This document shows, in pieces, positions 1 to 27,811 of a stretch of DNA of 32,000 nt. The translations under genes were made by a program, and so were the position numbers. The notes beneath the pieces are model-generated. The model did not search any database. It saw only the letters and a list, made by a program, of their open reading frames with translations, and was not told the DNA's origin. The DNA comes from Candidatus Saccharimonadota bacterium. GTDB taxonomy: Bacteria > Patescibacteriota > Gracilibacteria > BD1-5 > UBA6164. Location: contig CP042461.1 of assembly GCA_004563595.2 (NCBI GenBank), positions 630,001-662,000 on the forward strand. The letters are read 5' to 3'. How positions within the stretch are numbered: position 1 is the stretch's first letter; the number at the start of each line of letters is the position of its first letter.

Positions 1-1
1 T

Positions 2-190
2 AGGAACAATTTTGCGAAGATCACAGGATATAAAATTCCTTCCAAACCAAAAACAAAATGACTTATAGGGTATGTTTTAGATTCTGAGAGAAAAATATTT
101 GAAGATTCTATTGAAGATAACCCAAATCGGATTGATATAATTACTTATGATGAACTTTATAAGAGATTTAAAAAGTTTTATGAGTCTTAA
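2..190 (+). CDS. 3' end (62 codons) of an unidentified gene entering from the left edge; ends ...NRIDIITYDELYKRFKKFYES*
   Basis: Frame 2 is open from nt 2 to TAA 188-190 if TGA 59-61 is read as Gly. A hairpin and T-run follow. Too short to assign a family. Confidence 0.35.
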
Positions 191-210
191 ATAATATACT
201 TATATAAATA

Positions 211-244
211 AAAAAAGGCTAGACTTTCATCTAACCTTTTTTTT
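211..244. terminator. A-run / imperfect hairpin / T-run, intrinsic-terminator-like
   Basis: aaaaaaGGcTAG-actttcat-CTAaCCtttttttt directly after the stop at 188-190. Confidence 0.5.
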
Positions 245-435
245 AACCTTTAAAGGTTATCTTGTGGACTATTCTATCCACTCAAAATATATCTCTTGGA
301 TTATCTCATTTTATGAGATCTCATTTCTTTAGCACTGTGGTTAAATCAAATGAACAATAGTTTTGCTCATCGTAGTGTGTTCAGTCGGCATCAACTGACT
401 CTATTGCATATTCGTACATAATATAAAAATTGTAA

Positions 436-518
436 AAGGACCCTAGCAGGAAGATCACCACAATCGTACACCTGCTAAGGTCCTTAAATAAGGTGATCTA
501 TTTAAATACGATTGTGGT
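436..518. repeat. Interlocked inverted repeats (pseudoknot-like topology)
   Basis: aaggaccctagcagg (436-450) pairs with cctgctaaggtcctt (471-485), 14 of 15. Its 20-nt loop contains gatcacc (453-459), complementary to ggtgatc (492-498), and ccacaatcgta (458-468), complementary to tacgattgtgg (508-518). Confidence 0.7.
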
Positions 519-1043
519 ATATTAGTTATAGCTATAAATAAATTATTTGCAAATTGTTTTTAAATGTAAAATAAATGACGTCACTGGAGTATAGCATAAT
601 AGTTTTTATAAAAGCAAAAGTTTTTTCGACTTTCTTGGCTTTGTGTAGGTGATATATCGATATTATAAGTACAAATAAACTATTGATTATAATGAAGTGA
701 TATTAACAGGGCATTAATATTGAGGATTAAAGTAATAATTTCTTTGATAGGTTAATATTACTGAGTCGAACTTTTCGTCTCATGGGAGGAATTCTTGAGT
801 GGTATATTGTTTATAGCTTTCTAATGTAAGATTTGGTACTTGTGTTTTTAAAGACATGTTATAAATTAAATAATACTTTAAATTTTTCTATTGAATCAAC
901 TCCATTCATTCATAGATACCACCCTATTGATGTATAGAATAGTATATTTATCAAGGTCATTAATGTACTAGACGTAAAGTCACTTATGAATTCTCAGAAT
1001 TGTATTATGAGAAACTCTCAATAAGTTCATATGTCTGGATCGC

Positions 1044-2312
1044 TTAAGCACTTATCACATTTCACTTTTTTTCATAGGATTTCTTTCATAATTTAATTTT
1101 AGGTTTTATAGTATATTTCTTTAAGATTCTATTAATTATAGATGCTTCAAGTCATTGTTCTTGTAAATATATGATTAAATTTTCTAGTAGATCATATCAA
1201 TTAAATAGTTTTCTATTCACAAGTTTGAATTGTTTCACATTATATCATTTACTTTTAGCATATTCATATTGATATAAGCTAGTTCTATCTCTTATAGTCT
1301 CTTTTGATTCTTTTTGAACTCATAGAACGGTATCAAAGAGTCAAACATATCATGTATTATTTTGAATAGTTTTTAAATATCAGTGTGACCTAGAGAGATA
1401 ATCTTTTGGAATATGTCAGTGCTGTAAATAATAACTTTTTAGATCAAATTTTACGTTAGTATATTTTTTGAGCTCTATATCTTTGTAATGTAACTCGTGT
1501 TCTGTATATCTATTGAAGTATTTTGTAAATATTCTTTGAATAGGTTTATTTCTATTCTCTAATATATCAGAGATGGAGAAATCTGTTATTCTTTTACATT
1601 CTTCGGGTCTGAGTTCTAGTTCAATTCTTCTTACATCATGATTATGTATGAGGTGAGGATAGAGGAATCATTTTTGTTTTTTCCAGGTATCAAGTATTTT
1701 ATCATAAACTCTAAATAGAAATTTACGGTTTGAATTACTTTGTGGATTATTGATATAGTAGGTTTGACTAAACTCAGGGTGTTTTTTGTCATTTCATATT
1801 TCAGAAAAGAAATTTACGTCTTTGAGGAGTTGGGATTTAATCTTTTTAATATCATAGGGTAAATCTATAGCAATATCTAACCTGTGTAAATCTGTTTTAT
1901 CATCTGTGAAAAATGCTTCATAGAATTCTTTTATGGAGAAATCTAGTTTGTCGCTCTTTTCTAAAACAAAAAAAGTAGAATAAAAAACTACTTTATCTTT
2001 TGAACGTTGTCATATTCCCCTATTCTCTTTTCATTTCAATATAGCAAAGAGACTCACGCTTCGTCATTCAAAGGAGGCTGAAAATCTTAATCAATCAGAG
2101 TATCAAGGAGGAGAAAAGCGATGATAGGTCCAGTGTATTCAAGCAAAACTCATATGTCATCAGTCTGAATTATCCCAATCAATATTAAAGCATGGTCATT
2201 CTTGTGTATTATAATCATAGAGAGATGGAGATTCTTGATAATCTTTTATAGTAAATTCTAGATGATCTAATCAGAAGAAGATATAATCATCTTTTATATT
2301 AATTTGGGTCAT
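1044..2312 (-). CDS. Replication initiation protein, Rep_trans (PF02486-like) rolling-circle initiator, 422 aa under code 25
   Basis: Hand translation is continuous from ATG 2312 to TAA 1044, with an in-frame TAA 12 nt upstream of the ATG. Family-typical motifs are present: HRLDIAIDL, NRKFLFRVYDKILD and VRRIELELRPEEC. By my count there are 22 in-frame TGA against one GGA for Gly. No SD. Confidence 0.8.
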
Positions 2313-3005
2313 TTGGATTTTTTACGCAATTAAAAGGACTTTTCGAGTGATAACATTCTTCCGGATTTACGCTCTGTAGACGTCCGGTGTTAGCAATGGA
2401 AAGCCAGTATGGCGGTGTATGTGCCAGTAAAGTTGTAAGGACATTATTGTAGTCCTATTTTAAAAAAAAGTGGGCTCTCAGAGCAGGATATTTGATGCTT
2501 TTTTAAGCATTTTTTATCTTTTTCTGAGAACTCACTAAACATAACAGGAGTTATGTTAATAAGAATCTATTTTAAATGGTTTTCAAATGTTAATAGCTTT
2601 AATATGCGTTTAATGTCTATTTAATGCGGATCTCCCCACATGCTATAACTTATGTTAAGTAGATCTTAACCATTTAAAGGGATAAGCTGTACTCTCACAA
2701 ATTACATTAATCACATAAAAATATGTTTTTAAAGATTTTTTAAGCCATTACTGGCTGAAATGCTCATTTTTGTACTTTCAATGTATATACACTGCAAACT
2801 TAGCTTTTTCAGTATCTCTTGACTGTTCAATCTGTAAAATCCTTATAAGCTGTTTTTGTAATTTTAACTCAAAACATGTTTCTAATGATGTCATAATTGA
2901 ATGTTCAATCATATTTGTTATTTCAATATAAAAATTTGACTACATATAATATTTACGTAAAATATTTTTATTCCGCTTATTCAATAAATAACTTGAGGTA
3001 TTTTT

Positions 3006-3311
3006 ATGAAAATTGGGTTGATCGTTTGTATTATAGTATTAGCTATTGTTTCTTTTGATAACTATCATATCAGGGTAAAACTTAGCAACCAAGTAAGTAT
3101 GACGAATCAGGTTCGATTTCATTTTGATCATTATAATGATGGAATAAGTGCGATTGTTTCAGCTTATAATGAAAAATGTCAAATTCCTACAGATACTGTA
3201 TTGGAGTTATCACTTTCTAAGCTATCTGGAAAGGAAAAATCTTATCCTGCTGTTACTCATATTATGAATAAACTCTCGGAATCTATAGGTGCTGTATCAA
3301 GTAATTGATAA
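3006..3311 (+). CDS. Small membrane-anchored protein, 100 aa (101 with a terminal Gly under code 25); autonomous cassette
   Basis: TTGACT-N16/17-TAAAAT promoter-like sequence at about 2937-2965 and GAGG 8 nt before the ATG. The N-terminus MKIGLIVCIIVLAIVSF is hydrophobic. All 4 internal Gly are GGN. The ORF ends TGA TAA (3306-3311), and a terminator follows. Confidence 0.6.
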
Positions 3312-3337
3312 TTTGTCGCTGAATAGAGTTAAAATAT

Positions 3338-3364
3338 CCCCCCTTAATAGGGGGTTTTATTTTA
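3338..3364 (+). terminator. Intrinsic terminator of the 3006 cassette
   Basis: ccccc-ttaata-ggggg hairpin followed by ttttatttt. Confidence 0.7.
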
Positions 3365-3465
3365 TTGATTTTTTTGTGGGTGTAGGCTACCCTTTAATTT
3401 AAATTATGACCTAAAGATGAAGACTACCCTCTTTCTTCGCTATGCTACGAAACAAATAGAAGAAT

Positions 3466-3502
3466 AAAAAACTAGCCCCCTAAAGCGTGGGGCTAGTTTT
3501 TT
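3466..3502. terminator. Bidirectional intrinsic terminator
   Basis: aaaaaa-CTAGCCCC-ctaaagcgt-GGGGCTAG-tttttt. It lies downstream of the minus-strand gene ending at 3548. Confidence 0.7.
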
Positions 3503-3547
3503 ATAGTAAATTTTATTCTATCTGATATAGAAGTATAAAGTATTATA

Positions 3548-3898
3548 CTACATATATTTTTTTGTAAGCTCATTTAATTCATCCATATCTATTTTTGCTA
3601 ATTTTTCAAGTCATATATCATTTATGTCTTCAGCAGATAACATATAACCAATTACAGTAATTTTTTCTACTGTCATTGATTCTAAAGAAAGAATTTCTAA
3701 TCAAATAGTATTTTTTTGTTGTTCGCTTAGATTGTTATTTATAGCTTCAAGTTTTTCTTTAGAAATATCTGAAGAATTAATGATTTCAGCATTTGTACGA
3801 GTAGTCTCTACAACTGCATTAATACCTTTTCACTGTTTAGATTCATTTTCTAATGAATTATTTTCTAGTTCTTCTCAATTCTCAGGTAATTTATCCAT
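3548..3898 (-). CDS. Hypothetical acidic protein, 116 aa (code 25)
   Basis: ATG 3898 to TAG 3548 is continuous with 4 TGA read as Gly (MDKLPENGEELENNSLENE...LTKKYM*). No SD and no recognisable domain. Confidence 0.5.
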
Positions 3899-4037
3899 TG
3901 TTTTATTTTAATTAATAATATTTATTTACGTAGATACTTGATATTAACATATAAATCATTAATTGTCAAATATATATTATTTTCATCATCTTGAAGTATT
4001 CAACAATAAGATAATAAGTTGCACTTAATTATATCTT

Positions 4038-4217
4038 TTATATATTCATAACATTATGGATAGAAGCATAAAACCAGATAGACATAATAAGAGCACTAAA
4101 TAGAATCTTGAAATGTCATTCTTGTTTCAGGATTATTAGAAAGATGATCAAAGGAATTATAAGAGTTTGGAACAAAAAGAAGGGGTAGTCTCATAGTCAT
4201 ATAAAATAATTGTACAT
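4038..4217 (-). CDS. Possible small membrane protein, 59 aa (code 25 only)
   Basis: GAGGAGGGGAG lies 10 nt upstream of ATG 4217. The translation MYNYFIGLGDYPFFLFQTLIIPLIIFLIILKQEGHF... is hydrophobic. It needs 3 TGA read as Gly; under the standard code it is only 6 codons. Confidence 0.3.
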
Positions 4218-4492
4218 AGGGTTATACTCCCCTCCTCAGATATTCAAAACAAGCTTGGTGGTAACTGAGTCAAAAATGAAGTAAAGACTAATCAGGTTAA
4301 TATTATATTTATAACCTGAATGTAACTTTAATATACTTAACTGATTCTTTATAGTTTTGTTTGTATAATTATTAACAAGGTAATAAATTTATGATTAAAT
4401 AATAATTTTTTATTTATGTTTTTACAAAATAATAGAATATTATATAATAATTTTGTTTTAGGTTAGCGTAATTTTACTAATATGGAGGATAT

Positions 4493-4792
4493 ATGTTACA
4501 TTCTAAAATTTCTGATGTAATAACCGGAGTGTTAAGAATAGTTTTTATTAGATCCTCAGGGTCAAAATTTATAACAATTTTTTTTATATTATGGTTTTTG
4601 ATATTACCATTTACATCATTGATTTCATTATCTATGTTGCTGATTAATTTTGGTTTTCCTATAATGTTAGAACATAAATTGCTTTATATTATACCTATAG
4701 GAGGTCTTATAGTCTCAGTAATATTGCCTTATTTTATTTATAAGCATGGTAAGCATTACTTGTTTTTCCACGTTATTGATAATGATTGATAA
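4493..4792 (+). CDS. Small integral membrane protein, 98 aa (99 with a terminal Gly under code 25); autonomous cassette
   Basis: TTTACA-N17/18-TATAAT upstream and GGAGG 5 nt before the ATG. Two or three hydrophobic segments. All 6 internal Gly are GGN. Ends TGA TAA (4787-4792). Confidence 0.55.
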
Positions 4793-4928
4793 GTATGTAA
4801 ATATGAAACCTTTGGCAGACATGCTAGAGGTTTTTATTTATCTTAATAGTCAGAAAAATCAATCCTTTTTGTTGACAATACAATTAATAATATATAATTA
4901 TACTGAAATTGTTCTAAGGAGACGAAAA

Positions 4929-5108
4929 ATGAATACTCAAAATATTCAATCTAATAAACTAACTAAGCAAGAGGAATCTCGTGCTGCTGTAGAATTATTA
5001 GTATCTGATGTAGATTTTGAAAGTATTGCTAAACGTACATGTGAACGTGATAGACTAAGAAGGATAAGACCATCTGATATGAAGAAGGTTTATAACTTTC
5101 GTAGATAA
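4929..5108 (+). CDS. Small basic protein, 59 aa
   Basis: AAGGAG lies 7 nt before ATG 4929 (MNTQNIQSNKLTKQEES...RIRPSDMKKVYNFRR*). Ends TAA TAA and is followed by a terminator. The 5' extension in the ORF track (from 4746) has no SD. Confidence 0.5.
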   Translation: MNTQNIQSNKLTKQEESRAAVELLVSDVDFESIAKRTCERDRLRRIRPSDMKKVYNFRR

Positions 5109-5131
5109 TAAATATTTCGTTACAATTTCAT

Positions 5132-5156
5132 AAGGGCCTAATGGCCCTTTTTTTAT
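5132..5156 (+). terminator. Intrinsic terminator of the 4493/4929 unit
   Basis: aaGGGCC-taat-GGCCCttttttt. Confidence 0.75.
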
Positions 5157-5192
5157 TGTTTAGACAATTGAGTTTTATCTTTAATTAGACAT

Positions 5193-5220
5193 AAAAAAAA
5201 AGCCGTGAAATTCACGGCTT
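5193..5220 (-). terminator. Intrinsic terminator of cassette 5225-5653
   Basis: aaaaaaaaa-GCCGTG-aaatt-CACGGC-tt, which reads as hairpin plus U-run on the minus strand. It is homologous to the hairpins at 5754 and 6274. Confidence 0.75.
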
Positions 5221-5224
5221 ATAT

Positions 5225-5653
5225 TTAGTAAGCAACAATTATATGATAATTATTCTCAGAATCTATTTCTGGAAAACTAACTTCACCAAAATGATTTATA
5301 CTTACTGTAATTCTTGATGAATGATCTTTTCTTAAAAGCACAATCTTTACTTTAGATAAGTCACCCCGAAACTTTCTTCCTATAAAGTTTCTTCCTAATT
5401 GAAATTTAAACCCTAACTTGATACCGTCATTATTAAAGCGTTTACGTACTTCAATAGATAAGTCACCCTCAAAATCTTCATAATTATCAAGGTTACTTTC
5501 ACTTAATACATAATCTTTTAATAGATTATGTATATGATCTTTTAGTTGAGGTGTTTCTATCTTAACAGAATTTGCTTTTTGTTGAGCTAGTTCTGTAATA
5601 TTTAGGCACGTTATATCATTTCCTTTATGATAACTTCTTTTTGCACTTTCCAT
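5225..5653 (-). CDS. Hypothetical protein, 142 aa; member 1 of a tandem paralog trio
   Basis: AAGGAG lies 8 nt before ATG 5653; the ORF-track start at 5722 has no SD. There is a TTGACT-N16/17-TAGTAT promoter. 8 Gly, none TGA. The C-terminal block is INHFGEVSFPEIDSENNYHIIVAY. Confidence 0.6.
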   Translation of the reverse strand: MESAKRSYHKGNDITCLNITELAQQKANSVKIETPQLKDHIHNLLKDYVLSESNLDNYEDFEGDLSIEVRKRFNNDGIKLGFKFQLGRNFIGRKFRGDLSKVKIVLLRKDHSSRITVSINHFGEVSFPEIDSENNYHIIVAY

Positions 5654-5753
5654 AACTACTACTCCTTTTAATATGGATTTCCATTTGCGCGTGCATACTA
5701 TCCAGACTTTTTTGTAAGTCAAGAATAAACTTTTATCTACTCATTTAAGCGTG

Positions 5754-5781
5754 AAAAAAGCCGTGAAGATCCACGACTTTT
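5754..5781 (-). terminator. Intrinsic terminator of cassette 5793-6170
   Basis: aaaaaaGCCGTG-aagatc-CACGaCtttt. Confidence 0.65.
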
Positions 5782-5792
5782 CATTTTCTAGA

Positions 5793-6170
5793 TTAAAAAA
5801 CGTTTAAGCTATATTCATTTATATGATGAGGTAAGACGAAAAAAAATCGACCATACTTATCCAGATTTGTGCATTTTATCTTGTTACCAAAACTGGTCAC
5901 AAGAATATTGGTAGTAGTAAAATGAACCTTTTTAGTATACTCTTTGTGTACTTGAAAAGATATATAAACTACTCTCCCCGCTTCTGTTATAAATGAACTT
6001 ATTAGAAGGTTCAAAAAGACTCCGTCTTTTGAAATTAATTCTACTAAATTACCTTCTTCGTCTTTTAATTTGAGGTTGTGCATAAGATCACTAACCTCCT
6101 TTACTAAGTCTTCATCAAAACAAATATCTTCTGATGTTTCATTAGTAATATTTACTTCAGCCACACCCAT
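5793..6170 (-). CDS. Hypothetical protein, 125 aa; member 2 of the tandem paralog trio
   Basis: AAGGAG lies 6 nt before the ATG, and TTGACA-N17-ACTATA is upstream. 6 Gly, none TGA. The C-terminal block is NLDKYGRFFFVLPHHINEYSLNVF. Confidence 0.65.
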   Translation of the reverse strand: MGVAEVNITNETSEDICFDEDLVKEVSDLMHNLKLKDEEGNLVELISKDGVFLNLLISSFITEAGRVVYISFQVHKEYTKKVHFTTTNILVTSFGNKIKCTNLDKYGRFFFVLPHHINEYSLNVF

Positions 6171-6273
6171 TTCATTCTCCTTTTAAAATTGGGTTCCATG
6201 CTATTTTATAGTATAGTAATTTAATCATATGTCAAATTTGAAAGTTTTGTATTCGGTTATTTAATATGCAAAT

Positions 6274-6299
6274 AAAAAGCCGTAAGATATACGGCTTTT
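6274..6299 (-). terminator. Intrinsic terminator of cassette 6318-6641
   Basis: aaaaAGCCGTA-agata-TACGGCTtttt. Confidence 0.75.
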
Positions 6300-6317
6300 A
6301 CATGTCTTAGCTTTTGA

Positions 6318-6641
6318 TTACAATTTTACTTTTATGGTGATAAGCGTTACTTGGTCCGTTAGAAACTCTATCATACCATTACTATCTACTTCCTGAAAAT
6401 CTTGTATATTAACCCCGTTAATTTCAACTGCAGCCCAAATTTGGCTTAGATTTATATTTTTTTTAGACTTATTATTAAAAGTTAGATAGATAAGTTTAGT
6501 CTTCCCTATATATTGAGTAATGAGCTCAAAATATAGGGAATAAGAAATAGAATCATTATCTTCATTCTGAAGGATAAGATTTCCTTTTATTTCTTCAATA
6601 CCTTCTTGTAATGTAATCATTGCTACTTGAGTATTTATCAT
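6318..6641 (-). CDS. Hypothetical protein, 107 aa; member 3 of the tandem paralog trio
   Basis: AAGGAG lies 5 nt before ATG 6641. A TTGACT-N17-ATTATA promoter sits just after the recX stop. 5 Gly, none TGA. The C-terminal block is VDSNGMIEFLTDQVTLITIKVKL. Confidence 0.6.
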   Translation of the reverse strand: MINTQVAMITLQEGIEEIKGNLILQNEDNDSISYSLYFELITQYIGKTKLIYLTFNNKSKKNINLSQIWAAVEINGVNIQDFQEVDSNGMIEFLTDQVTLITIKVKL

Positions 6642-6727
6642 TCTAGCTCCTTTTTGAATTATTTTACTCAGCATCTGTATAATATATATAAAATTAGAAG
6701 AGTCAAGTATGTCCTGATAATATATAT

Positions 6728-7321
6728 TTATTTATTTATTATTTCTTTAATATCACCATAGAAAAATCATTTTCTGAGAAGCTTTTCTATAATTTTCTTT
6801 TTTTCATATTTTCATTCAAGTTTTTGGTACTCATGAGCAAGGTTTTCATTATCTCACTTATCTCAAAATACAACACTCAGGGCATTCTCAACTCATTCTC
6901 TATCTAATTTTCTTTCTATTAATTTTATTTTTATATATTGAATAGACTTCCCTTTATTTTTAAAATTTTCAATTTTTCTGACAAGTGAATGCACATTTAA
7001 CAAACTATGTTCTTCGCTTCAAAATTCATTTGTTAATATTTCATTTATTCTATCTTTTGGAAATTGTTTTTTCATGAGATTGAGTTTGATATAGTTCACA
7101 TTTTTATTTCTAAAAATATAATTTTTTATGTTTGATCTGATAATATCATCCTCAGTGAATAGATGTTTAATTTGATCCAATACTCAATCTACGAGTTCCC
7201 TATCTTGTAGCGTTTTTTCTAATAATTTATTTTCAAGTTTTTTGTTTGATGGAAAATACCTAAAATAATACCATAAAGCATAGTCTTTGAGTCGAATGGA
7301 TGTTGTTATTATTTTATTCAT
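6728..7321 (-). CDS. recX: RecX-like regulatory protein, 197 aa (code 25)
   Basis: Continuous translation with 6 TGA read as Gly. The N-terminus YALWYYFRYFPSNKKLENKLLEK and the C-terminus KKIIEKLLRKGFFYGDIKEII match the repeated three-helix pattern of RecX (PF02631). No SD. Confidence 0.7.
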
Positions 7322-7333
7322 ATTCTAGATGTA

Positions 7334-7367
7334 TAAAAAAAGTGGCCCTGACTATTGAGTCAGGGCT
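7334..7367 (-). terminator. Intrinsic terminator of the 7380-7526 cassette
   Basis: GCCCTGACT-attg-AGTCAGGGC (9-bp stem), with the run of A (U on the minus strand) at 7335-7341. Confidence 0.75.
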
Positions 7368-7379
7368 ATGAAAAGTATA

Positions 7380-7526
7380 TTAATATACTTTAATAACGGG
7401 AGCCGGAAATGATGGATTTAATAATTTTTTTTGTTCCATTCGAGTCCGAAAAAACCTAAACACTCCATATAATGAGCCAAGTATAGCAACGCATACGAAG
7501 ATCCCATATAAGATTGATTGAATCAT
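7380..7526 (-). CDS. Small single-pass membrane protein, 48 aa; autonomous cassette
   Basis: AAGGAG lies 7 nt before ATG 7526 (MIQSILYGIFVCVAILGSLYGVFRFFRTRMEQKK...). 3 Gly, none TGA. TAA stop, then a terminator. Confidence 0.5.
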   Translation of the reverse strand: MIQSILYGIFVCVAILGSLYGVFRFFRTRMEQKKLLNPSFPAPVIKVY

Positions 7527-7578
7527 CTTTTTTCTCCTTGAGGTCTAAAAACCGTCTGTATTATAGTGATATTTATTG

Positions 7579-7626
7579 AATGTCAATCAAAAAAACATTG
7601 ACTTACTTATACATACAAATATTATT
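7579..7626 (+). promoter_or_regulatory. groESL promoter region with a 9-N9-9 inverted repeat across the -35 element
   Basis: aatgtcaat (7579-7587), N9, attgactta (7597-7605), with 7 of 9 positions complementary. TTGACT is at 7598-7603 and an A/T-rich -10 candidate lies 17 nt downstream. No CIRCE consensus (TTAGCACTC-N9-GAGTGCTAA) is present. Confidence 0.35.
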
Positions 7627-7657
7627 TTATATATTTATTTTTTTAAAGTTGAAATCT

Positions 7658-7933
7658 ATGGGTATCAAGCCATTAGCTGATAGAGTTTTATTAAAAGCAG
7701 TTACAAAAGAGAATGTGACAGCATCAGGGATATATTTACCAGAATCTGCAAATAAAGAAAGGTCGTATATGTATGAAGTAGTAGCTGTTTGAGCTGGAAA
7801 AAAAGATATTGATATGTCAGTCAAAATCTGAGATAAGGTTCTGAGTGGTCAATACTCATGAGATGATGTTAAAGTTGATGGAAATGAATACAAGATAGTT
7901 GCGATGGATTATATATTAGCAATTGTTGAGTAA
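7658..7933 (+). CDS. groES: Co-chaperonin GroES, 91 aa (code 25)
   Basis: MGIKPLADRVLLK...VAV[G]AGKK...VKI[G]DKVL...YS[G]DDVKVDGNEYKIV. All three in-frame TGA fall on conserved GroES glycines. Confidence 0.95.
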
Positions 7934-7950
7934 AAAGAGGAAAATAAAAA

Positions 7951-7996
7951 ATAACCCATCCCCCTTCGGGGACTTCCCTTCATCCGAATGGAAGAC
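7951..7996 (+). repeat. 46-nt double-hairpin intergenic element, copy 1 (after groES)
   Basis: ataacccatcccccttcggggacttcccttcatccgaatggaagac. Nearly identical to 9703-9748. Confidence 0.8.
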
Positions 7997-8027
7997 ATTC
8001 ATGTATTACCTATTAATCAAATAAACA

Positions 8028-16872: not shown

Positions 16873-18600
16873 TTATGGTAAAGCTATACCTCTTGTCATA
16901 AAATATATAATTGCGCAGAGACTTCCTGATCCAGGAACTGTTAGTACCCATGCTGATGCAATTTGTATCATATTTTTTTTAAGATTCAAGCTTCTTTGCT
17001 CTATTTCATGTTCTTTTTCTTGTGCTTTTCCTTTTTTCCTTTTAGCTTCTAATAATGAAATATTTAGGTGTATAAGTGTATCTTGTAACTTAATTATCTC
17101 ATCTTTAGTTATCTCATCTGGTTCAGCGATTGCTGATTTTCCATCTAAGACTGATTCGGTTTCTTTTATTTCTTTTTTTATTCTGTTTACTTTTTTCTTT
17201 CTTTTATTAATTTTTTTATGTGCATTCTCAAGTAGATTTGCATTTTCCCAGAATTTCGATCTTTCGCTATCTCCTTGTGGTTCTAGGATAACTACAATTT
17301 TATTTATCCATCCAATTATAGTTGGAAAATAAGCAACTGCAAATACACCTCCAACAGCTATATGAGTAGAACTAACTGGTATTCCTAGTTGTGACGCAAG
17401 AATTACAGTACAAGTTGATCCCATTGCAATAGAGAACGATCTTATTGGGGTAAGTTCTGTTATATCGCTTCCGACTTTTTTGATAATTCTTTTTCCAAAG
17501 AATCCAAGTCCGATCACAAGTCCTACAATACCAATGCCCATTATCCATAGGGGTATTGCTGCTTTTTTTGATATGCCATTATTAATAATCGCATCATAAA
17601 TTGCTGCGTATGGACCAATTGCATTTGCTATATCATTTGCTCCATGCGCAAAACATAACAGACAGGCTGCTCCTATTAATGGTTTGATAAAAAGATCATT
17701 TATCCAGTTGATGTTAGTAACAGAATTAGTAATACTCTTCTTATCAATTTTTGAAGTAGCTTTCTTAATTATTGGTTTTGCTATCAAATACGCTACAGTT
17801 GCTATACCAAACCCAATGAGTACTGCAACACTGGCATCTAAGCTTATTACTTTTTTTAATCCTTTAAGTAAAAGATAAGTAGTTGCTGACCATGTCATTA
17901 TTGCAATAACTAATGGAATTACTTTTTGTGCTGCAGCTAATTGATCTTTTTGATAAACAATAAATCTCTTAATAAACCATAAGAAGATAGCTGTTATTAT
18001 TCCACCAAGTACTGGTGAAGCAACCCAACTTCCAACAATTTTTAAAACTGTCCACCAAGCCACAATATCAAGACCACCAGCTGCTATTCCTCCTCCCAAT
18101 ACTGCTCCTACAATAGAGTGAGTCGTTGAGACCGGTGCTCCTAGTTTTGTTGCGATATTTAACCATATTCCTGCAGCAAGTAATGATGAAACCATTAAGA
18201 AAATATATTCATGTATATTTGATGAAAACATACTAGGATCAATAATTCCTTTTTTGATCGTTTTAACAACATCACCACCAGCTATGAATGCACCACCAGC
18301 CTCAAAAATAGCAGCTACAATAAGTGCAGTAGTTAATGAAAATGCTCCTGCTCCATATGCAGGACCAATATTGTTTGCTACGTCATTTGCACCAATATTT
18401 ACTGCCATATAGCCACAAACTAATGCACCAAATGCAAGAGTATAACTTGCGTTTATAATTGTGTTATCATATAGTGTAATTGTTCCAGCAAAGTATACAT
18501 ATATAGAACATGTAAGTGTTGCTAGGACTATTGCAGTAATAATGATAAAAAAATTATTAATTGTAATAGACTTATTATTGTCTACAGTTGTAGTATTCAT
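16873..18600 (-). CDS. Inorganic phosphate transporter, PiT/PHO4 family (PF01384-like), 575 aa from the second ATG
   Basis: The two PiT signature repeats GANDVANNIGP and GANDIANAIGP are present, with many TM segments. GAGGGG lies 6 nt before ATG 18600, and TTGACA-N18-TATATA is upstream. About 48 Gly codons, none TGA. A charged coiled-coil-like insert of about 100 aa lies near the C-terminus. Confidence 0.9.
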   Translation of the reverse strand: MNTTTVDNNKSITINNFFIIITAIVLATLTCSIYVYFAGTITLYDNTIINASYTLAFGALVCGYMAVNIGANDVANNIGPAYGAGAFSLTTALIVAAIFEAGGAFIAGGDVVKTIKKGIIDPSMFSSNIHEYIFLMVSSLLAAGIWLNIATKLGAPVSTTHSIVGAVLGGGIAAGGLDIVAWWTVLKIVGSWVASPVLGGIITAIFLWFIKRFIVYQKDQLAAAQKVIPLVIAIMTWSATTYLLLKGLKKVISLDASVAVLIGFGIATVAYLIAKPIIKKATSKIDKKSITNSVTNINWINDLFIKPLIGAACLLCFAHGANDIANAIGPYAAIYDAIINNGISKKAAIPLWIMGIGIVGLVIGLGFFGKRIIKKVGSDITELTPIRSFSIAMGSTCTVILASQLGIPVSSTHIAVGGVFAVAYFPTIIGWINKIVVILEPQGDSERSKFWENANLLENAHKKINKRKKKVNRIKKEIKETESVLDGKSAIAEPDEITKDEIIKLQDTLIHLNISLLEAKRKKGKAQEKEHEIEQRSLNLKKNMIQIASAWVLTVPGSGSLCAIIYFMTRGIALP

Positions 18601-18882
18601 ACACATCCCCTCATTATGAGTTTTTGAAAAGTTTATAAAACAACGTATATATAGTATGATTTTTTGTATATTGTCAAAAAGTATTTTAAATAATACTTGT
18701 ATAGTAACTGCACATGTAACAATTTACATTAGGTTCTTTTAAGACTTCGATGCTAATATAAGATTCTAATTATTTGATAATGATATATGTTAGAGGTAAT
18801 TTAGATATAGAAATTATAAATGAGTACTTAGAAAAACCTGGTTTTGAGCTTTTAATAATTGAAGCTTTTGGATAAATAATTT

Positions 18883-18916: not shown

Positions 18917-19324
18917 TTACGATAACAATGGTTCTTTCAAAACTAGAGATGCATTTGGAGCAAATTCTTCGAATGCACTAATTACTTTATCTAAAGCATG
19001 TTTATTGTTAAATAATGATGGTAAAATTGGGCTGATGTTCAGTTTCTTCAATACCTCTTCAGTTTCATTAGAAAATTTAACTGTACTCATAAGAGCTTGA
19101 GATATTTGAGAATTATCAAAATCAGGTCCTTCAATATTGCTAATTATAGCCGACTGTGAAGAGTCTAGCGTCAATATTCCATGCCAGTATTCAAAGGCTG
19201 CAGAACTACTTTCATCACGTAGTTTTCTAATATCGTTACATAATGATTCTACGTTTACTTCAGCTACATATGATGATAACTCTAGAGCATCTTTCAATAA
19301 TTCATCACCATCTTTATTATCCAT
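18917..19324 (-). CDS. Hypothetical acidic protein, 135 aa; autonomous cassette
   Basis: AAGGAG lies 8 nt before the ATG. TAA stop. 3 Gly, none TGA. No recognisable domain. Confidence 0.55.
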   Translation of the reverse strand: MDNKDGDELLKDALELSSYVAEVNVESLCNDIRKLRDESSSAAFEYWHGILTLDSSQSAIISNIEGPDFDNSQISQALMSTVKFSNETEEVLKKLNISPILPSLFNNKHALDKVISAFEEFAPNASLVLKEPLLS

Positions 19325-19490: not shown

Positions 19491-19865
19491 TTATGCATAT
19501 TGCTTCAATGGAACCTTATCTATTACCGTAACGTTATATGAAGATATATTGCTTAATATTTCTTGCATTTCTCCAATTTCGCTGGAATTTGAGAACATGT
19601 TATCAGTTAAATAACATATTACGTCGTATGATTTTGTTTCTGTTGGTACTAAAAAAGTTATTTTATCTTTTTTAGGTGGGTTAATTAAACGATCAAGAAG
19701 CCCCTTTTTTCTCACTAATTTCATTTCCCAAAGAGTTTTTTTATAAGGATTAAATAGCCATTTTCGTCTGAATACAATCCCTTCAACTTTATATCTGTTT
19801 TTTATAGATGAAGGCAAATTTTGTTTAAAGCCTAGTATTATTTTTTTACTTGCTTTTTTAGGCAC
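19491..19865 (-). CDS. Hypothetical basic protein, 124 aa (GTG start); autonomous cassette
   Basis: AAGGAA lies about 9 nt before GTG 19865. The N-terminus PKKASKKIILGFKQ...RRKW is Lys/Arg-rich. 4 Gly, none TGA. TAA stop. Confidence 0.5.
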   Translation of the reverse strand: MPKKASKKIILGFKQNLPSSIKNRYKVEGIVFRRKWLFNPYKKTLWEMKLVRKKGLLDRLINPPKKDKITFLVPTETKSYDVICYLTDNMFSNSSEIGEMQEILSNISSYNVTVIDKVPLKQYA

Positions 19866-20034: not shown

Positions 20035-20391
20035 CTATATATTTTCCCTTTCTCTATTTATATGAGCAATAAATCTTTTAATCATATTCACTAATTTTAT
20101 TACTTCATCAGCTGATAAATCAGGTCGATTATCATTATCAAAATAAGGCTTATCTTTACTTTTACAAGTCATATCTAGTGTGTAATCATCGAGATATTTC
20201 TTCCTTTGATGGTTATTTTCTATAAAACCCTGATAATTTTCTAAACATCCACGTAATGTTCGTTTTTCCAGGGATTTAATTATTTCAACTACTATACCAT
20301 AATCTCTTTCTATATTTTTTCCTTCATCTTCTATACTCTTACTTGAAGAAGAACCTATACTGAAAGAGGAATAGCTTAATTCTTTACTCAT
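20035..20391 (-). CDS. Hypothetical protein, 118 aa; autonomous cassette
   Basis: AGGGAG lies 9 nt before ATG 20391; the ORF-track start at 20421 has no SD. 5 Gly, none TGA. TAG stop. Confidence 0.5.
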   Translation of the reverse strand: MSKELSYSSFSIGSSSSKSIEDEGKNIERDYGIVVEIIKSLEKRTLRGCLENYQGFIENNHQRKKYLDDYTLDMTCKSKDKPYFDNDNRPDLSADEVIKLVNMIKRFIAHINRERENI

Positions 20392-20476
20392 ATTTAATAC
20401 TCCCTTTTTTATTATAAACAATATGTATAAAAAACATATTATTTATAATGTTATTTAATATTAAGTCAATATTAAC

Positions 20477-25381: not shown

Positions 25382-25469
25382 TCTGTTGCTTTTTAGATTT
25401 GCAGAGGATTGTTGTAATTCTAAAAAGGGGAAATCAAAACAAAATTATATGAGAAAAGGAGATTATCTC

Positions 25470-25991
25470 ATGCTACATAAAAGTGTTCTTTTAATGTTTC
25501 TACTTATAGCTATATATATTTTGGCTTCTTGTGGAGGAGGAAATCCTGGACCACCAGATCCACTCCCTGAACCTGAATATAATAATGAGAATCAAGACAC
25601 GGTTGGTGATGATTTAGAAGAATTATCTAAATCACCGATATCTTTTTATGATCTAAATATTGATGATGAAAAGTATTGGGAATCACAATTTGATATAGGA
25701 TATATTCTGACTGCAGAAATACCCTTAGATATTACGTTAGAATTATCTGGAAATACAAAACTATGTTTTTCTGTGGATTATTTAAGTGATGTTGATGACT
25801 GTGATGAGATTCAACTTCAAACAAAAGGACAGCTTGGTGATTTAGATATTACTGTAACTATTGATTCTGTAGCCCAGAATTATGAAAATAATTCTGTAAT
25901 ATATATTGAGGAAGATTCATTCGTTCATATACAGGCATATAGTTTAAAAGAAATACTTCTAAAAACTCAATTTGTTTTTAATATAAAATAA
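25470..25991 (+). CDS. Lipoprotein, 173 aa; autonomous cassette
   Basis: AAGGAG lies 7 nt before ATG 25470. MLHKSVLLMFLLIAIYILAS-C-GGGNPGPP has a lipobox (LAS|C). The mature part is acidic. 9 Gly, none TGA. TAA stop. Confidence 0.7.
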   Translation: MLHKSVLLMFLLIAIYILASCGGGNPGPPDPLPEPEYNNENQDTVGDDLEELSKSPISFYDLNIDDEKYWESQFDIGYILTAEIPLDITLELSGNTKLCFSVDYLSDVDDCDEIQLQTKGQLGDLDITVTIDSVAQNYENNSVIYIEEDSFVHIQAYSLKEILLKTQFVFNIK

Positions 25992-27208: not shown

Positions 27209-27652
27209 TTATAATACTTCGTCAGTAAGTTTGTTATAAGTGAAAATATCAGTTCCTTTAAAGAATCTATTTAGTTCAATTTCAGCATTTTCTGAAGTAT
27301 CTGAAGCGTGGATAATATTTGCATCTATAGATAATGCAAGGTCACCTCTAATTGATCCTGGTAATGCTTCAACTGGATTTGTTGCACCAGTTAACATTCT
27401 TACTGTAGCTATTGCATTTGCACCTTTAGCTGCTATTGCTACAATTGGAGTTCTTGTCATATATTTTTTAATATTTGGAAAGAATGGTTTATCCATTAAG
27501 AAATCATAATGTTCTTCGATGATAGCATCATCTAATTGCATCATTTTTAATCCTGTAATTTTTAATCCTTTTGCTTCTAATCTAGCGATAACTTGACCAA
27601 TTAAACTTCTTTCAATTGTATCTGGTTTTAATAGTATAAGTGTAGTTTCCAT
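27209..27652 (-). CDS. ndk: Nucleoside diphosphate kinase, 147 aa
   Basis: METTLILLKPD...FFPNIKKYMTRTPIVAIAAKGANAI...NIIHASD (active-site His). No SD. All 8 Gly are GGN. Start chosen at the conserved N-terminus rather than the ORF-track start at 27685. Confidence 0.93.
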   Translation of the reverse strand: METTLILLKPDTIERSLIGQVIARLEAKGLKITGLKMMQLDDAIIEEHYDFLMDKPFFPNIKKYMTRTPIVAIAAKGANAIATVRMLTGATNPVEALPGSIRGDLALSIDANIIHASDTSENAEIELNRFFKGTDIFTYNKLTDEVL

Positions 27653-27811
27653 ATCGGCTATTTTTATAATTATAAAATACGTCAAGATTATATATATATT
27701 CTGAAAAAAGCAATCTTTTCTTTACTATACTTTGATTCTTGAAGGGTTGCTTTTTAATGATTATTGCATATATTTAGCTGCAATATATATATTATAAATA
27801 AAAAGAGAGGA

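What the first reader, a model, noticed from the sequence alone, without database searches (positions are those of the whole stretch)
5193..6727. Tandem trio of diverged paralogous mini-genes, each a full promoter-SD-ORF-terminator unit with homologous terminators
Three consecutive minus-strand units (5225-5653, 5793-6170, 6318-6641) each have a TTGAC(A/T)-N16/17 -10 promoter, AAGGAG and a terminator of the same sequence family (aaaaaGCCGTGaa..CACGGCtt, aaaaaGCCGTGaa..CACGaCtt, aaaaAGCCGTAag..TACGGCTtt). So the whole unit was duplicated. The proteins (142, 125 and 107 aa) have diverged almost beyond recognition. They keep a shared architecture and a C-terminal block (D/N)xxGxxxF...Yx(I/L)xV: NLDKYGRFFFVLPHHINEYSLNV, VDSNGMIEFLTDQVTLITIKV and INHFGEVSFPEIDSENNYHIIV. 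That block recalls the last strands of small beta-sandwich (carboxypeptidase-regulatory-like) domains. None has a signal peptide. A fast-diverging cytoplasmic family in individually transcribed units fits an arms-race or immunity-type role rather than housekeeping.
Basis: partly seen in the sequence, partly recalled or inferred. Interest (0 to 1): 0.72.

Follow-up and report, generated by a model that had tools for sequence, protein, structure and literature searches.

The report
Three stand-alone orphan paralog genes, UGA-free
Three neighbouring small genes in a Gracilibacteria genome are very old copies of one self-contained promoter-gene-terminator unit; they encode small proteins (all-beta in the one that could be modelled) with no known relatives, and they completely avoid the UGA codon that this organism otherwise uses for most of its glycines, which points to an origin outside the resident gene pool.

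Summary
Three minus-strand units (A 6318-6641, B 5793-6170, C 5225-5653) each have a TTGAC(A/T)-N16 -10 box, AAGGAG, an ORF and a hairpin terminator. The stem GCCGTR..YACGRC occurs only at these three places in 32 kb, against 0 expected.

The proteins are barely alignable (A-C BLASTP E=0.003). Leave-one-out profiles still rank each at or near the top of 1,628 background ORFs, so diverged paralogy is supported.

AlphaFold2 gives an 8-strand all-beta fold for A (pLDDT 81). Foldseek, Pfam, PHROGs, NCBIfam and PADLOC give no assignable family. A profile search of 1.84 billion proteins finds only the trio and one ortholog.

Gracilibacteria 28_42_T64, which uses genetic code 25. About 61% of glycine codons in native genes here are TGA; the trio has 0 of 19, and its orthologs 0 of 11.

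The trio sits in a variable slot downstream of a recX-like gene and is absent from 48 related loci. It evolves unevenly between two strains (A 52% aa identity, B 81%, omega about 0.9).

Best reading: foreign or code-neutral, moron-like cassettes. The arms-race or immunity role is untested. Interest is moderate.

The parts
6679..6706 (-). Promoter-like site of unit A (TTGACT-16-TATTAT); the -10 box ends 38 nt before the ATG
   Evidence: sequence
6647..6652 (-). Shine-Dalgarno AAGGAG of A, 5 nt before the ATG
   Evidence: read
6318..6641 (-). Gene A, 107 aa, pI 4.5; AF2 model with 8 beta strands (pLDDT 81); no in-frame TGA; TAA stop
6270..6300 (-). Terminator of A: AAAAGCCGTA-loop-TACGGCTTTTT, -13.4 kcal/mol; 90% conserved in L001
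6208..6235 (-). Promoter-like site of unit B (TTGACA-16-TACTAT); the -10 box ends 38 nt before the ATG; conserved in L001
6177..6199 (-). 5'UTR box plus AAGGAG of B; 83% identical to the same stretch of C
5793..6170 (-). Gene B, 125 aa, pI 5.3; N-terminal extension (helix 20-32 in a low-confidence AF2 model) followed by the segment that aligns with A; no in-frame TGA; TAA stop; 81% identical ortholog P0003
5754..5782 (-). Terminator of B: AAAAGTCGTG-loop-CACGGCTTTTTT, -13.2 kcal/mol
5695..5722 (-). Promoter-like site of unit C (TTGACT-16-TAGTAT); the -10 box ends 42 nt before the ATG
5662..5684 (-). 5'UTR box (contains the palindrome ATGGAAATCCAT) plus AAGGAG of C
5225..5653 (-). Gene C, 142 aa, pI 7.9; longest N-terminal extension; no in-frame TGA; TAA stop
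5193..5223 (-). Terminator of C: AAGCCGTG-loop-CACGGCTTTTTTTTT, -13.4 kcal/mol; an A run on the other side makes it potentially bidirectional
6728..7321 (-). Upstream co-directional recX-like gene (native: 7 of 9 Gly codons are TGA). It is the anchor of conserved synteny with groES/groEL. No terminator lies between it and A.

Best explanation
The locus is a tandem array of three anciently duplicated, autonomous gene cassettes. Each has a sigma-70-type promoter, a short 5'UTR with AAGGAG, one small ORF and its own intrinsic hairpin terminator. The ORFs encode soluble proteins of 107-142 aa. A is predicted to be an 8-strand all-beta domain. B and C carry extra N-terminal extensions. The family is an ORFan restricted to this Gracilibacteria lineage.

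Shown: homology of the units at the DNA level; weak but reproducible homology of the proteins; absence of the family from related genomes and from all protein libraries searched; location in a variable slot downstream of recX-like; total avoidance of the reassigned TGA-Gly codon; uneven divergence between two strains.

Inferred: the array did not diversify within the resident code-25 gene pool. It came from, or still exchanges with, a standard-code or code-neutral pool such as the TGA-free phages reported for Gracilibacteria. It behaves like phage 'morons', that is, self-transcribed add-on genes inserted between conserved genes.

Speculative: the proteins act as cytoplasmic protein-binding or inhibitor modules in some conflict or accessory role.
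For: - Unit homology. The terminator stem is unique to the three sites (0 expected). Repeats link terminators and UTRs. Promoter-to-ATG geometry is equal across units.
- Protein homology. A-C gives BLASTP E=0.003 and Smith-Waterman z=4.1. Three iterative aligners give one register. Leave-one-out profiles against 1,628 real ORFs give AC->B 0 better, AB->C 1, BC->A 6 and BB->A-ortholog 0.
- Real coding genes. Intact orthologs occur in a second strain. A has omega 0.39. The AF2 model of A has pLDDT 81 and pTM 0.71.
- ORFan status. Three word-indexed searches of 5.8 billion proteins found only self plus P0003. The profile search of 1.84 billion representatives added only two repeat-protein artefacts.
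- Variable slot. L002 (GroES 83% identical) keeps recX-like/groES/groEL/pilin but has a lipoprotein and thrS where the trio sits. 36 other genome loci and 11 metagenome loci lack the trio.
- TGA avoidance. Native genes use TGA for 239 of 389 Gly codons. The trio has 0 of 19, with 27 out-of-frame TGAs. The orthologs have 0 of 11. All stops are TAA. In other Gracilibacteria loci, 0 of 108 comparable genes are TGA-free.
- Literature. 34 of 38 putative Gracilibacteria phages lack in-frame TGA (PMC10746230).
- Uneven evolution. Nucleotide identity to L001 is 55-78% in A and 92-100% in the B core. Omega for B is 0.92.
Against: - No phage hallmark, integrase or mobile-element gene was recognised next to the trio.
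- There is no similarity to phage records or IMG/VR contigs.
- Apart from TGA, codon usage and GC3 of the trio look native. A recent transfer from a compositionally different donor is therefore unlikely, and selection against TGA is an alternative.
- The prophages reported in Gracilibacteria are TGA-rich, unlike this locus.
- Homology of B rests on weak statistics. B's AF2 model failed (pLDDT 35), and one MAFFT run gave another register.
- Single-gene units with their own terminators also occur elsewhere in the window, so autonomy as such is not special.
- No evidence bears on function.
Confidence: 0.55

Rival explanations
1. The trio is an array of orphan immunity or anti-defence proteins. 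These would be small cytoplasmic binders that neutralise toxins or phage or defence factors and diversify under an arms race.
For: The genes are small, soluble, tandem, ORFan paralogs. B has omega about 0.9-1.3. A has only 52% aa identity between strains whose B core is about 95% identical at the nucleotide level. The trio sits in a variable genomic slot.
Against: No toxin, secretion-system, Rhs/CDI, defence or phage gene is adjacent. There is no match to immunity or defence families. Each gene has its own promoter and terminator, unlike immunity arrays that are read from the toxin operon. An omega near 1 from 34 substitutions cannot separate positive selection from relaxed constraint.
Confidence: 0.2
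2. The trio consists of decaying, functionless remnants of an old insertion that drift neutrally in a gene-poor variable region.
For: B has omega 0.92 overall and 1.27 in its core. The family is an ORFan with no relatives. The neighbouring 1-5200 region is gene-poor, with small ORFs and long gaps. The trio is absent from the closest complete genome.
Against: 374 codons carry no stop of any of the three kinds in DNA of about 28% GC. Both strains keep intact ORFs, start codons, SD sequences, promoter and terminator. A has omega 0.39. A folds confidently in AF2. In-frame TGA is avoided while 27 occur out of frame, which neutral drift in a code-25 genome would not maintain.
Confidence: 0.15
3. The three genes are unrelated. 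They merely share a locally spreading terminator or repeat element, or are integron-type cassettes separated by recombination sites.
For: A-B and B-C pairwise comparisons are at chance level. hhalign probabilities are below 7%. One alignment run shifted B by a hairpin.
Against: Leave-one-out profiles place each protein at rank 1-7 of 1,628. The motifs EG(N/D)L, DG(V/I)xL, the hydrophobic strand after xG, and (E/N)(V/I/L)D are collinear. B and C also share the UTR box and N-terminal NIT..HNL.LKD motifs. The hairpins span 17-30 nt and are followed by U runs, so they look like terminators rather than attC sites of 57-141 nt. Each unit has its own promoter.
Confidence: 0.1

Closest known systems
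Phage 'morons' (autonomous promoter-ORF-terminator units inserted between conserved genes; Juhala/Hendrix concept, from my own knowledge)
   Same: Each gene has its own promoter and factor-independent terminator. The array lies between genes that are close neighbours in relatives (recX-like and thrS). Its codon signature differs from the surroundings (no TGA). It is accessory and restricted to one lineage.
   Different: It is not inside a recognisable prophage. It consists of three diverged paralogs in tandem rather than one insert. There is no homolog in any phage collection searched. GC content and other codon usage look native.
Code-11-compatible (TGA-free) phages predicted to infect Gracilibacteria and Absconditabacteria (Liu et al. 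2023, PMC10746230)
   Same: In-frame TGA is absent and stops are not TGA, so the product is the same under code 11 and code 25.
   Different: The locus is chromosomal and has no phage genes. The prophages described in that paper are TGA-rich. No sequence link to any phage was found.
Orphan immunity-gene arrays of polymorphic toxin systems (CDI, Rhs, T6SS; from my own knowledge)
   Same: Tandem small cytoplasmic paralogs that diverge fast and are often ORFans.
   Different: No toxin or delivery genes are present within the flanks examined. The units are transcribed individually. There is no match to known immunity families.
Integron gene-cassette arrays
   Same: Same-orientation small ORFan genes separated by hairpin-forming repeats of one sequence family.
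   Different: The hairpins are short GC stems with U tails, so they are terminators. Each gene has a promoter. No integrase was seen in the flanks examined, and attC architecture is absent.
MATH/TRAF-like and other 8-strand beta-sandwich domains; CarboxypepD_reg
   Same: A is predicted as an 8-strand antiparallel all-beta domain of about 100 aa. Its weak best Foldseek hits include the USP7 TRAF-like domain and giant-virus proteins.
   Different: All matches have E >= 0.016. TM (query-normalised) is at most 0.41 against PDB and at most 0.56 against BFVD. There is no Pfam hit. The resemblance is at the level of a generic beta-sandwich only.

Membership tests
Tandem paralog family (A, B, C derived from one unit) | Flanking regulatory DNA is homologous between units | tested here: met
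   The terminator stem is unique to the three sites. Repeats D2, D7 and D4 link terminators and UTRs.
Tandem paralog family (A, B, C derived from one unit) | Proteins are significantly similar in sequence | tested here: met
   Met only weakly. A-C gives E=0.003 and z=4.1. Leave-one-out profile ranks are 1-7 of 1,628. A-B and B-C are not significant pairwise.
Tandem paralog family (A, B, C derived from one unit) | Proteins share one fold | tested here: inconclusive
   A is modelled confidently. B's model failed (pLDDT 35).
Phage moron | Own promoter and own intrinsic terminator around a single ORF | tested here: met
   (sequence-level prediction only)
Phage moron | Inserted between genes that are adjacent in related genomes | tested here: met
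   Relatives have recX-like followed within 0.1-2.5 kb by other genes and thrS, without the trio.
Phage moron | Resides in a phage or prophage genome | tested here: not met
   No phage families were found in the neighbours. No phage or IMG/VR similarity was found.
Code-neutral (code 11 and code 25 compatible) gene set | No in-frame TGA although the host uses TGA for most Gly; stop codon is not TGA | tested here: met
   The trio has 0 of 19 Gly codons as TGA, against 61% in native genes. All stops are TAA.
Polymorphic-toxin immunity array | Adjacent toxin or delivery gene, or a match to a known immunity family | tested here: not met
   No such Pfam, NCBIfam or PADLOC hits in the trio or its neighbours.
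Integron cassette array | attC sites (57-141 nt with R''/L''-L'/R' cores) and a nearby intI | tested here: not met
   The inter-ORF hairpins are 17-30 nt with U tails. intI was not searched for systematically across the whole window.
CarboxypepD_reg-like beta-sandwich | Match to the Pfam family or a structural match to such domains | tested here: not met
   No Pfam hit even at E <= 10. There is no significant Foldseek match, and no carboxypeptidase-regulatory-domain entry is recognisable among the 50 best listed.

The most novel reading that the evidence does not exclude
The trio belongs to a pool of 'code-neutral' cassettes that move between recoded Gracilibacteria and standard-code partners such as phages, plasmids or the bacterial host or prey. 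These cassettes would be kept free of UGA so that they are translated identically on both sides of the genetic-code barrier. The small all-beta proteins would then be conflict or interaction factors of that shared mobilome. Other UGA-free genes in the same window (PHO4 transporter, ndk, several small ORFs) would be further members. In-frame UGA content would then be a simple marker of cross-code gene flow in recoded bacteria.
Probability: 0.15. Interest if true: 0.7.

Novelty: new variant of a known kind. Interest (0 to 1): 0.42.

Why it matters
In itself the trio is one more lineage-specific family of hypothetical proteins in a CPR genome. It has two wider points of interest.

First, it is a clean example of whole transcription units (promoter, UTR, ORF and terminator) being duplicated and then diverging until the proteins are almost unrecognisable.

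Second, in an organism that reads UGA as glycine, these genes and a handful of others in the window contain no UGA at all while otherwise using native-like codons. If that reflects gene flow from a standard-code or code-neutral pool, in-frame UGA content gives a cheap way to map what crosses the genetic-code barrier in Gracilibacteria and Absconditabacteria.

A practical consequence is that these genes can be expressed in E. coli without recoding.

Tried and rejected
- Family libraries. Pfam, PHROGs, NCBIfam and PADLOC scans of A, B and C gave nothing usable. The best hits were E 0.001-1.4 on short stretches.
- Solved structures by sequence. The PDB profile search gave only a de novo design at E=1.2.
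- Fold searches. Foldseek of the A model against PDB and BFVD found no match at E <= 0.001.
- AF2 of B with its ortholog failed (pLDDT 35).
- Profile search of 1.84 billion representatives. The two non-self hits, P0005 and P0006, are long internally repetitive proteins that score by summed weak repeats. I rejected them as artefacts.
- hhalign between small profiles gave probabilities below 7%.
- Collection scans. The metagenome scan with B found nothing. The IMG/VR scan with the trio profile found nothing. tblastn against 50,697 phage records found only chance hits.
- Rfam found nothing near threshold in 4000-8000.
- The 422-aa neighbour at 1044-2312 looked to me, from memory, like a Rep_trans-type initiator (motifs LDIAID, YDK, RIELEL). 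No library supported this, so I do not use it.
- Integron cassettes were considered and rejected on hairpin architecture.
- High expression as the cause of TGA avoidance was rejected because groEL uses TGA for 28 of 52 Gly codons.
Full report
**Source and genetic code.** The three proteins match, at 100% identity, hypothetical proteins A9Q91_03015, 03020 and 03025 of Candidatus Gracilibacteria bacterium 28_42_T64. This is the closed 1.34-Mb BD1-5 genome of Sieber et al. 2019 (PMC6851277). Under table 11 the window yields 2,933 aa in ORFs of at least 100 aa. Under table 25 it yields 9,611 aa. groEL, for example, is only intact when TGA is read as a sense codon. All further ORF work used code 25.

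**The observation.** On the minus strand lie gene A (6318-6641, 107 aa), gene B (5793-6170, 125 aa) and gene C (5225-5653, 142 aa).
- Each is preceded by TTGAC(T/A), a 16-nt spacer and TA(T/C/G)TAT.
- The -10 box ends 38, 38 and 42 nt before the ATG. AAGGAG lies 5, 6 and 8 nt before the ATG.
- Promoter-like matches are not enriched in this AT-rich DNA in general (47 found, 39.6 expected). The weight therefore lies on the identical geometry and on conservation of the B promoter in a second strain.
- Each gene is followed by a hairpin plus U run. The pattern GCCGTR-N3-8-YACGRC occurs only at these three places in 32 kb, with 0.00 expected. Free energies are -13.2 to -13.4 kcal/mol, z -5 to -6.
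- The repeat finder independently links terminators C and A (31 nt, 81%) and C and B (14 nt exact). It also links a 23-nt 5'UTR box of B and C (83%).

**Are the proteins paralogs?**
- Pairwise evidence is thin. A-C gives BLASTP E=0.003 and Smith-Waterman z=4.1 with 0 of 500 shuffles as good. A-B and B-C are at chance. hhalign probabilities are below 7%.
- Three iterative MAFFT modes, helped by two orthologs, give one collinear register. It contains the blocks EG(N/D)L, (N)DG(I/V)xL, a hydrophobic strand after xG, and (E/N)(V/I/L)D(S/K)xG. The automatic mode once shifted B by one hairpin, so the register is not beyond doubt.
- In leave-one-out tests I built a profile from two members and scored the third against 1,628 real code-25 ORFs of 80-200 aa from Gracilibacteria loci. 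The number of background ORFs scoring at least as well was 0 for B, 1 for C, 6 for A and 0-3 for A's ortholog. Against shuffles, p was 0.001-0.035.

Together with the homologous flanks and adjacency, I take paralogy as supported at roughly 85%. In this register C's EIDSEN, not INHFG, aligns with A's EVDSNG and B's NLDKYG.

**Fold and family.**
- AF2 of A with the three-sequence alignment gives pLDDT 81.4 and pTM 0.71. The model has eight beta strands and no helix.
- Foldseek finds nothing at E <= 0.001. In PDB the best hit has E=0.03 and query-normalised TM is at most 0.41. In BFVD the best has E=0.016 and TM 0.56. The USP7 TRAF-like domain and giant-virus proteins are among these weak hits. 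This is only a generic beta-sandwich resemblance.
- AF2 of B failed (pLDDT 35).
- Pfam, PHROGs, NCBIfam and PADLOC give no usable match.
- None of the three proteins has a hydrophobic segment or signal-like N-terminus. Their pI values are 4.5, 5.3 and 7.9.

**Distribution.**
- Searches of 5.8 billion proteins return only the proteins themselves plus P0003, an 80% identical ortholog of B.
- P0003 lies on a 788-nt ENA contig (L001). That contig also carries the 3' part of an A ortholog and the conserved terminator and promoter.
- A profile of the trio run against 1.84 billion representatives adds only two internally repetitive proteins, which I reject as artefacts.
- There are no relatives in phage records or IMG/VR.
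- Loci anchored on groES from 37 genomes, nearly all labelled Gracilibacteria or related Patescibacteria, contain no homolog of the trio. Neither do 11 metagenome loci anchored on the recX-like gene.
- The closest genome, L002 (CP060226, GroES 83% identical), keeps recX-like, groES, groEL and a pilin-like gene in order. Where the trio sits, it has a small lipoprotein gene and thrS.
- In other relatives the stretch between recX-like and thrS holds different genes each time.

The trio is therefore a lineage-specific insert in a variable slot.

**Evolution between the two strains.** All values come from a Nei-Gojobori estimate under code 25.

| Segment | aa identity | dS | dN | omega |
|---|---|---|---|---|
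| A | 52% | 0.92 | 0.36 | 0.39 |
| B (whole) | 81% | 0.10 | 0.096 | 0.92 |
| B N-terminal 38 codons | not computed | 0.28 | 0.19 | 0.67 |
| B core | not computed | 0.046 | 0.058 | 1.27 |

The B core value rests on only 14 substitutions and is not different from 1. Nucleotide identity along the locus is mosaic: 55-78% in A, 90% around A's stop and terminator, 65-82% between A and B, 68-75% in B's N-terminal part and 92-100% in the B core. This fits recombination or local diversification. It does not by itself prove positive selection.

- In 16 clearly native genes of the window, 239 of 389 glycine codons (61%) are TGA.
- The trio has 0 of 19, although TGA occurs 27 times in its other two frames. 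Its L001 orthologs have 0 of 11. All stops are TAA. With native usage, the chance of 0 of 19 is about 1e-8.
The contrast with the genome is nevertheless real.
- In other Gracilibacteria loci with comparable TGA use, 0 of 108 genes with at least 8 Gly codons are TGA-free. The window has 4 of 21.
- The other TGA-free genes are a PHO4 phosphate transporter (0 of 48), ndk, and several small ORFs.
- Outside glycine, the trio's codon usage and GC3 fall within the range of single native genes.
- The paralogs are saturated in divergence and still carry no TGA. So either they diversified where TGA is a stop and arrived as an array, or TGA is selected against in them.
- Liu et al. 2023 (PMC10746230) report that 34 of 38 putative Gracilibacteria phages above 20 kb lack in-frame TGA and are compatible with both codes. 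Integrated prophages, by contrast, are TGA-rich.

**Interpretation.** The architecture corresponds to what phage biologists call morons: an autonomous promoter-ORF-terminator unit, inserted between otherwise neighbouring genes, with a deviant codon signature. Membership fails on the defining point that no phage context exists. I therefore describe the units as moron-like, code-neutral accessory cassettes.

A role as cytoplasmic binders in some conflict (immunity or anti-defence) remains possible, but no result here supports it directly. There is no toxin, defence or secretion gene nearby, and omega near 1 is equally compatible with relaxed constraint.

Pure relics are unlikely. Both strains keep intact ORFs and regulatory signals, A is under purifying selection, and all three stop triplets are absent in frame.

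**Verdict.** Novelty is a new variant of a known kind. Interest is moderate and rests mostly on the UGA-free signature in a recoded genome.

Noticed in passing
window 1-32000: The window uses genetic code 25 (TGA = Gly). Coding capacity in ORFs of at least 100 aa is 2,933 aa under table 11 and 9,611 aa under table 25. The source is Ca. Gracilibacteria bacterium 28_42_T64.
   Followed up: yes
window 16873-18606(-), 18917-19324(-), 19491-19865(-), 20035-20421(-), 25386-25991(+), 27209-27685(-): This is a second set of genes with no in-frame TGA: a PHO4 phosphate transporter (0 of 48 Gly codons), ndk (0 of 8), a 201-aa ORF (0 of 11) and three small ORFs. Native genes use TGA for 61% of Gly codons. 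Their other codon usage is native-like. Two of the small genes and PHO4 have terminator hairpins of other sequence families; none was listed for the third (20035-20421).
   Followed up: partly
window 5662-5684 and 6177-6199: The 5'UTRs of C and B share a 23-nt box (83%) between the -10 box and the ATG. In C it contains the palindrome ATGGAAATCCAT, and the box is conserved in L001. It may be an operator or simply a leftover of the duplication.
   Followed up: no
window 1-5200: This is a gene-poor stretch with long gaps and small ORFs that has no counterpart in the 10-kb flanks of the closest genome L002. It includes a native (TGA-rich) 422-aa ORF at 1044-2312(-) with motifs LDIAID, YDK and RIELEL. 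These reminded me of Rep_trans-type replication initiators, but Pfam, PHROGs, NCBIfam, PDB and phage tblastn gave nothing.
   Followed up: partly
L002, L040-L050 (downstream of the recX-like gene): The slot between recX-like and thrS differs in every related Gracilibacteria locus examined. Contents include a lipoprotein, a pilT-like gene, 445-476-aa ORFs and small coiled-coil ORFs. This suggests a recurrent insertion or turnover site next to groESL.
   Followed up: partly
L001 1-788 versus window 5780-6600: Nucleotide identity between the two strains jumps from 55-78% (gene A) to 90% (A's stop and terminator), falls to 65-82%, and then rises to 92-100% (B core). This is a mosaic suggestive of recombination breakpoints. 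A 1-nt indel extends the A ortholog by 4 residues.
   Followed up: partly
window 5132-5149(+) and 5193-5223: Two terminator hairpins lie about 50 nt apart, facing each other at the convergent junction between the + strand small ORF 4929-5108 and gene C. C's hairpin has A and T runs on both sides and could act in both directions.
   Followed up: no
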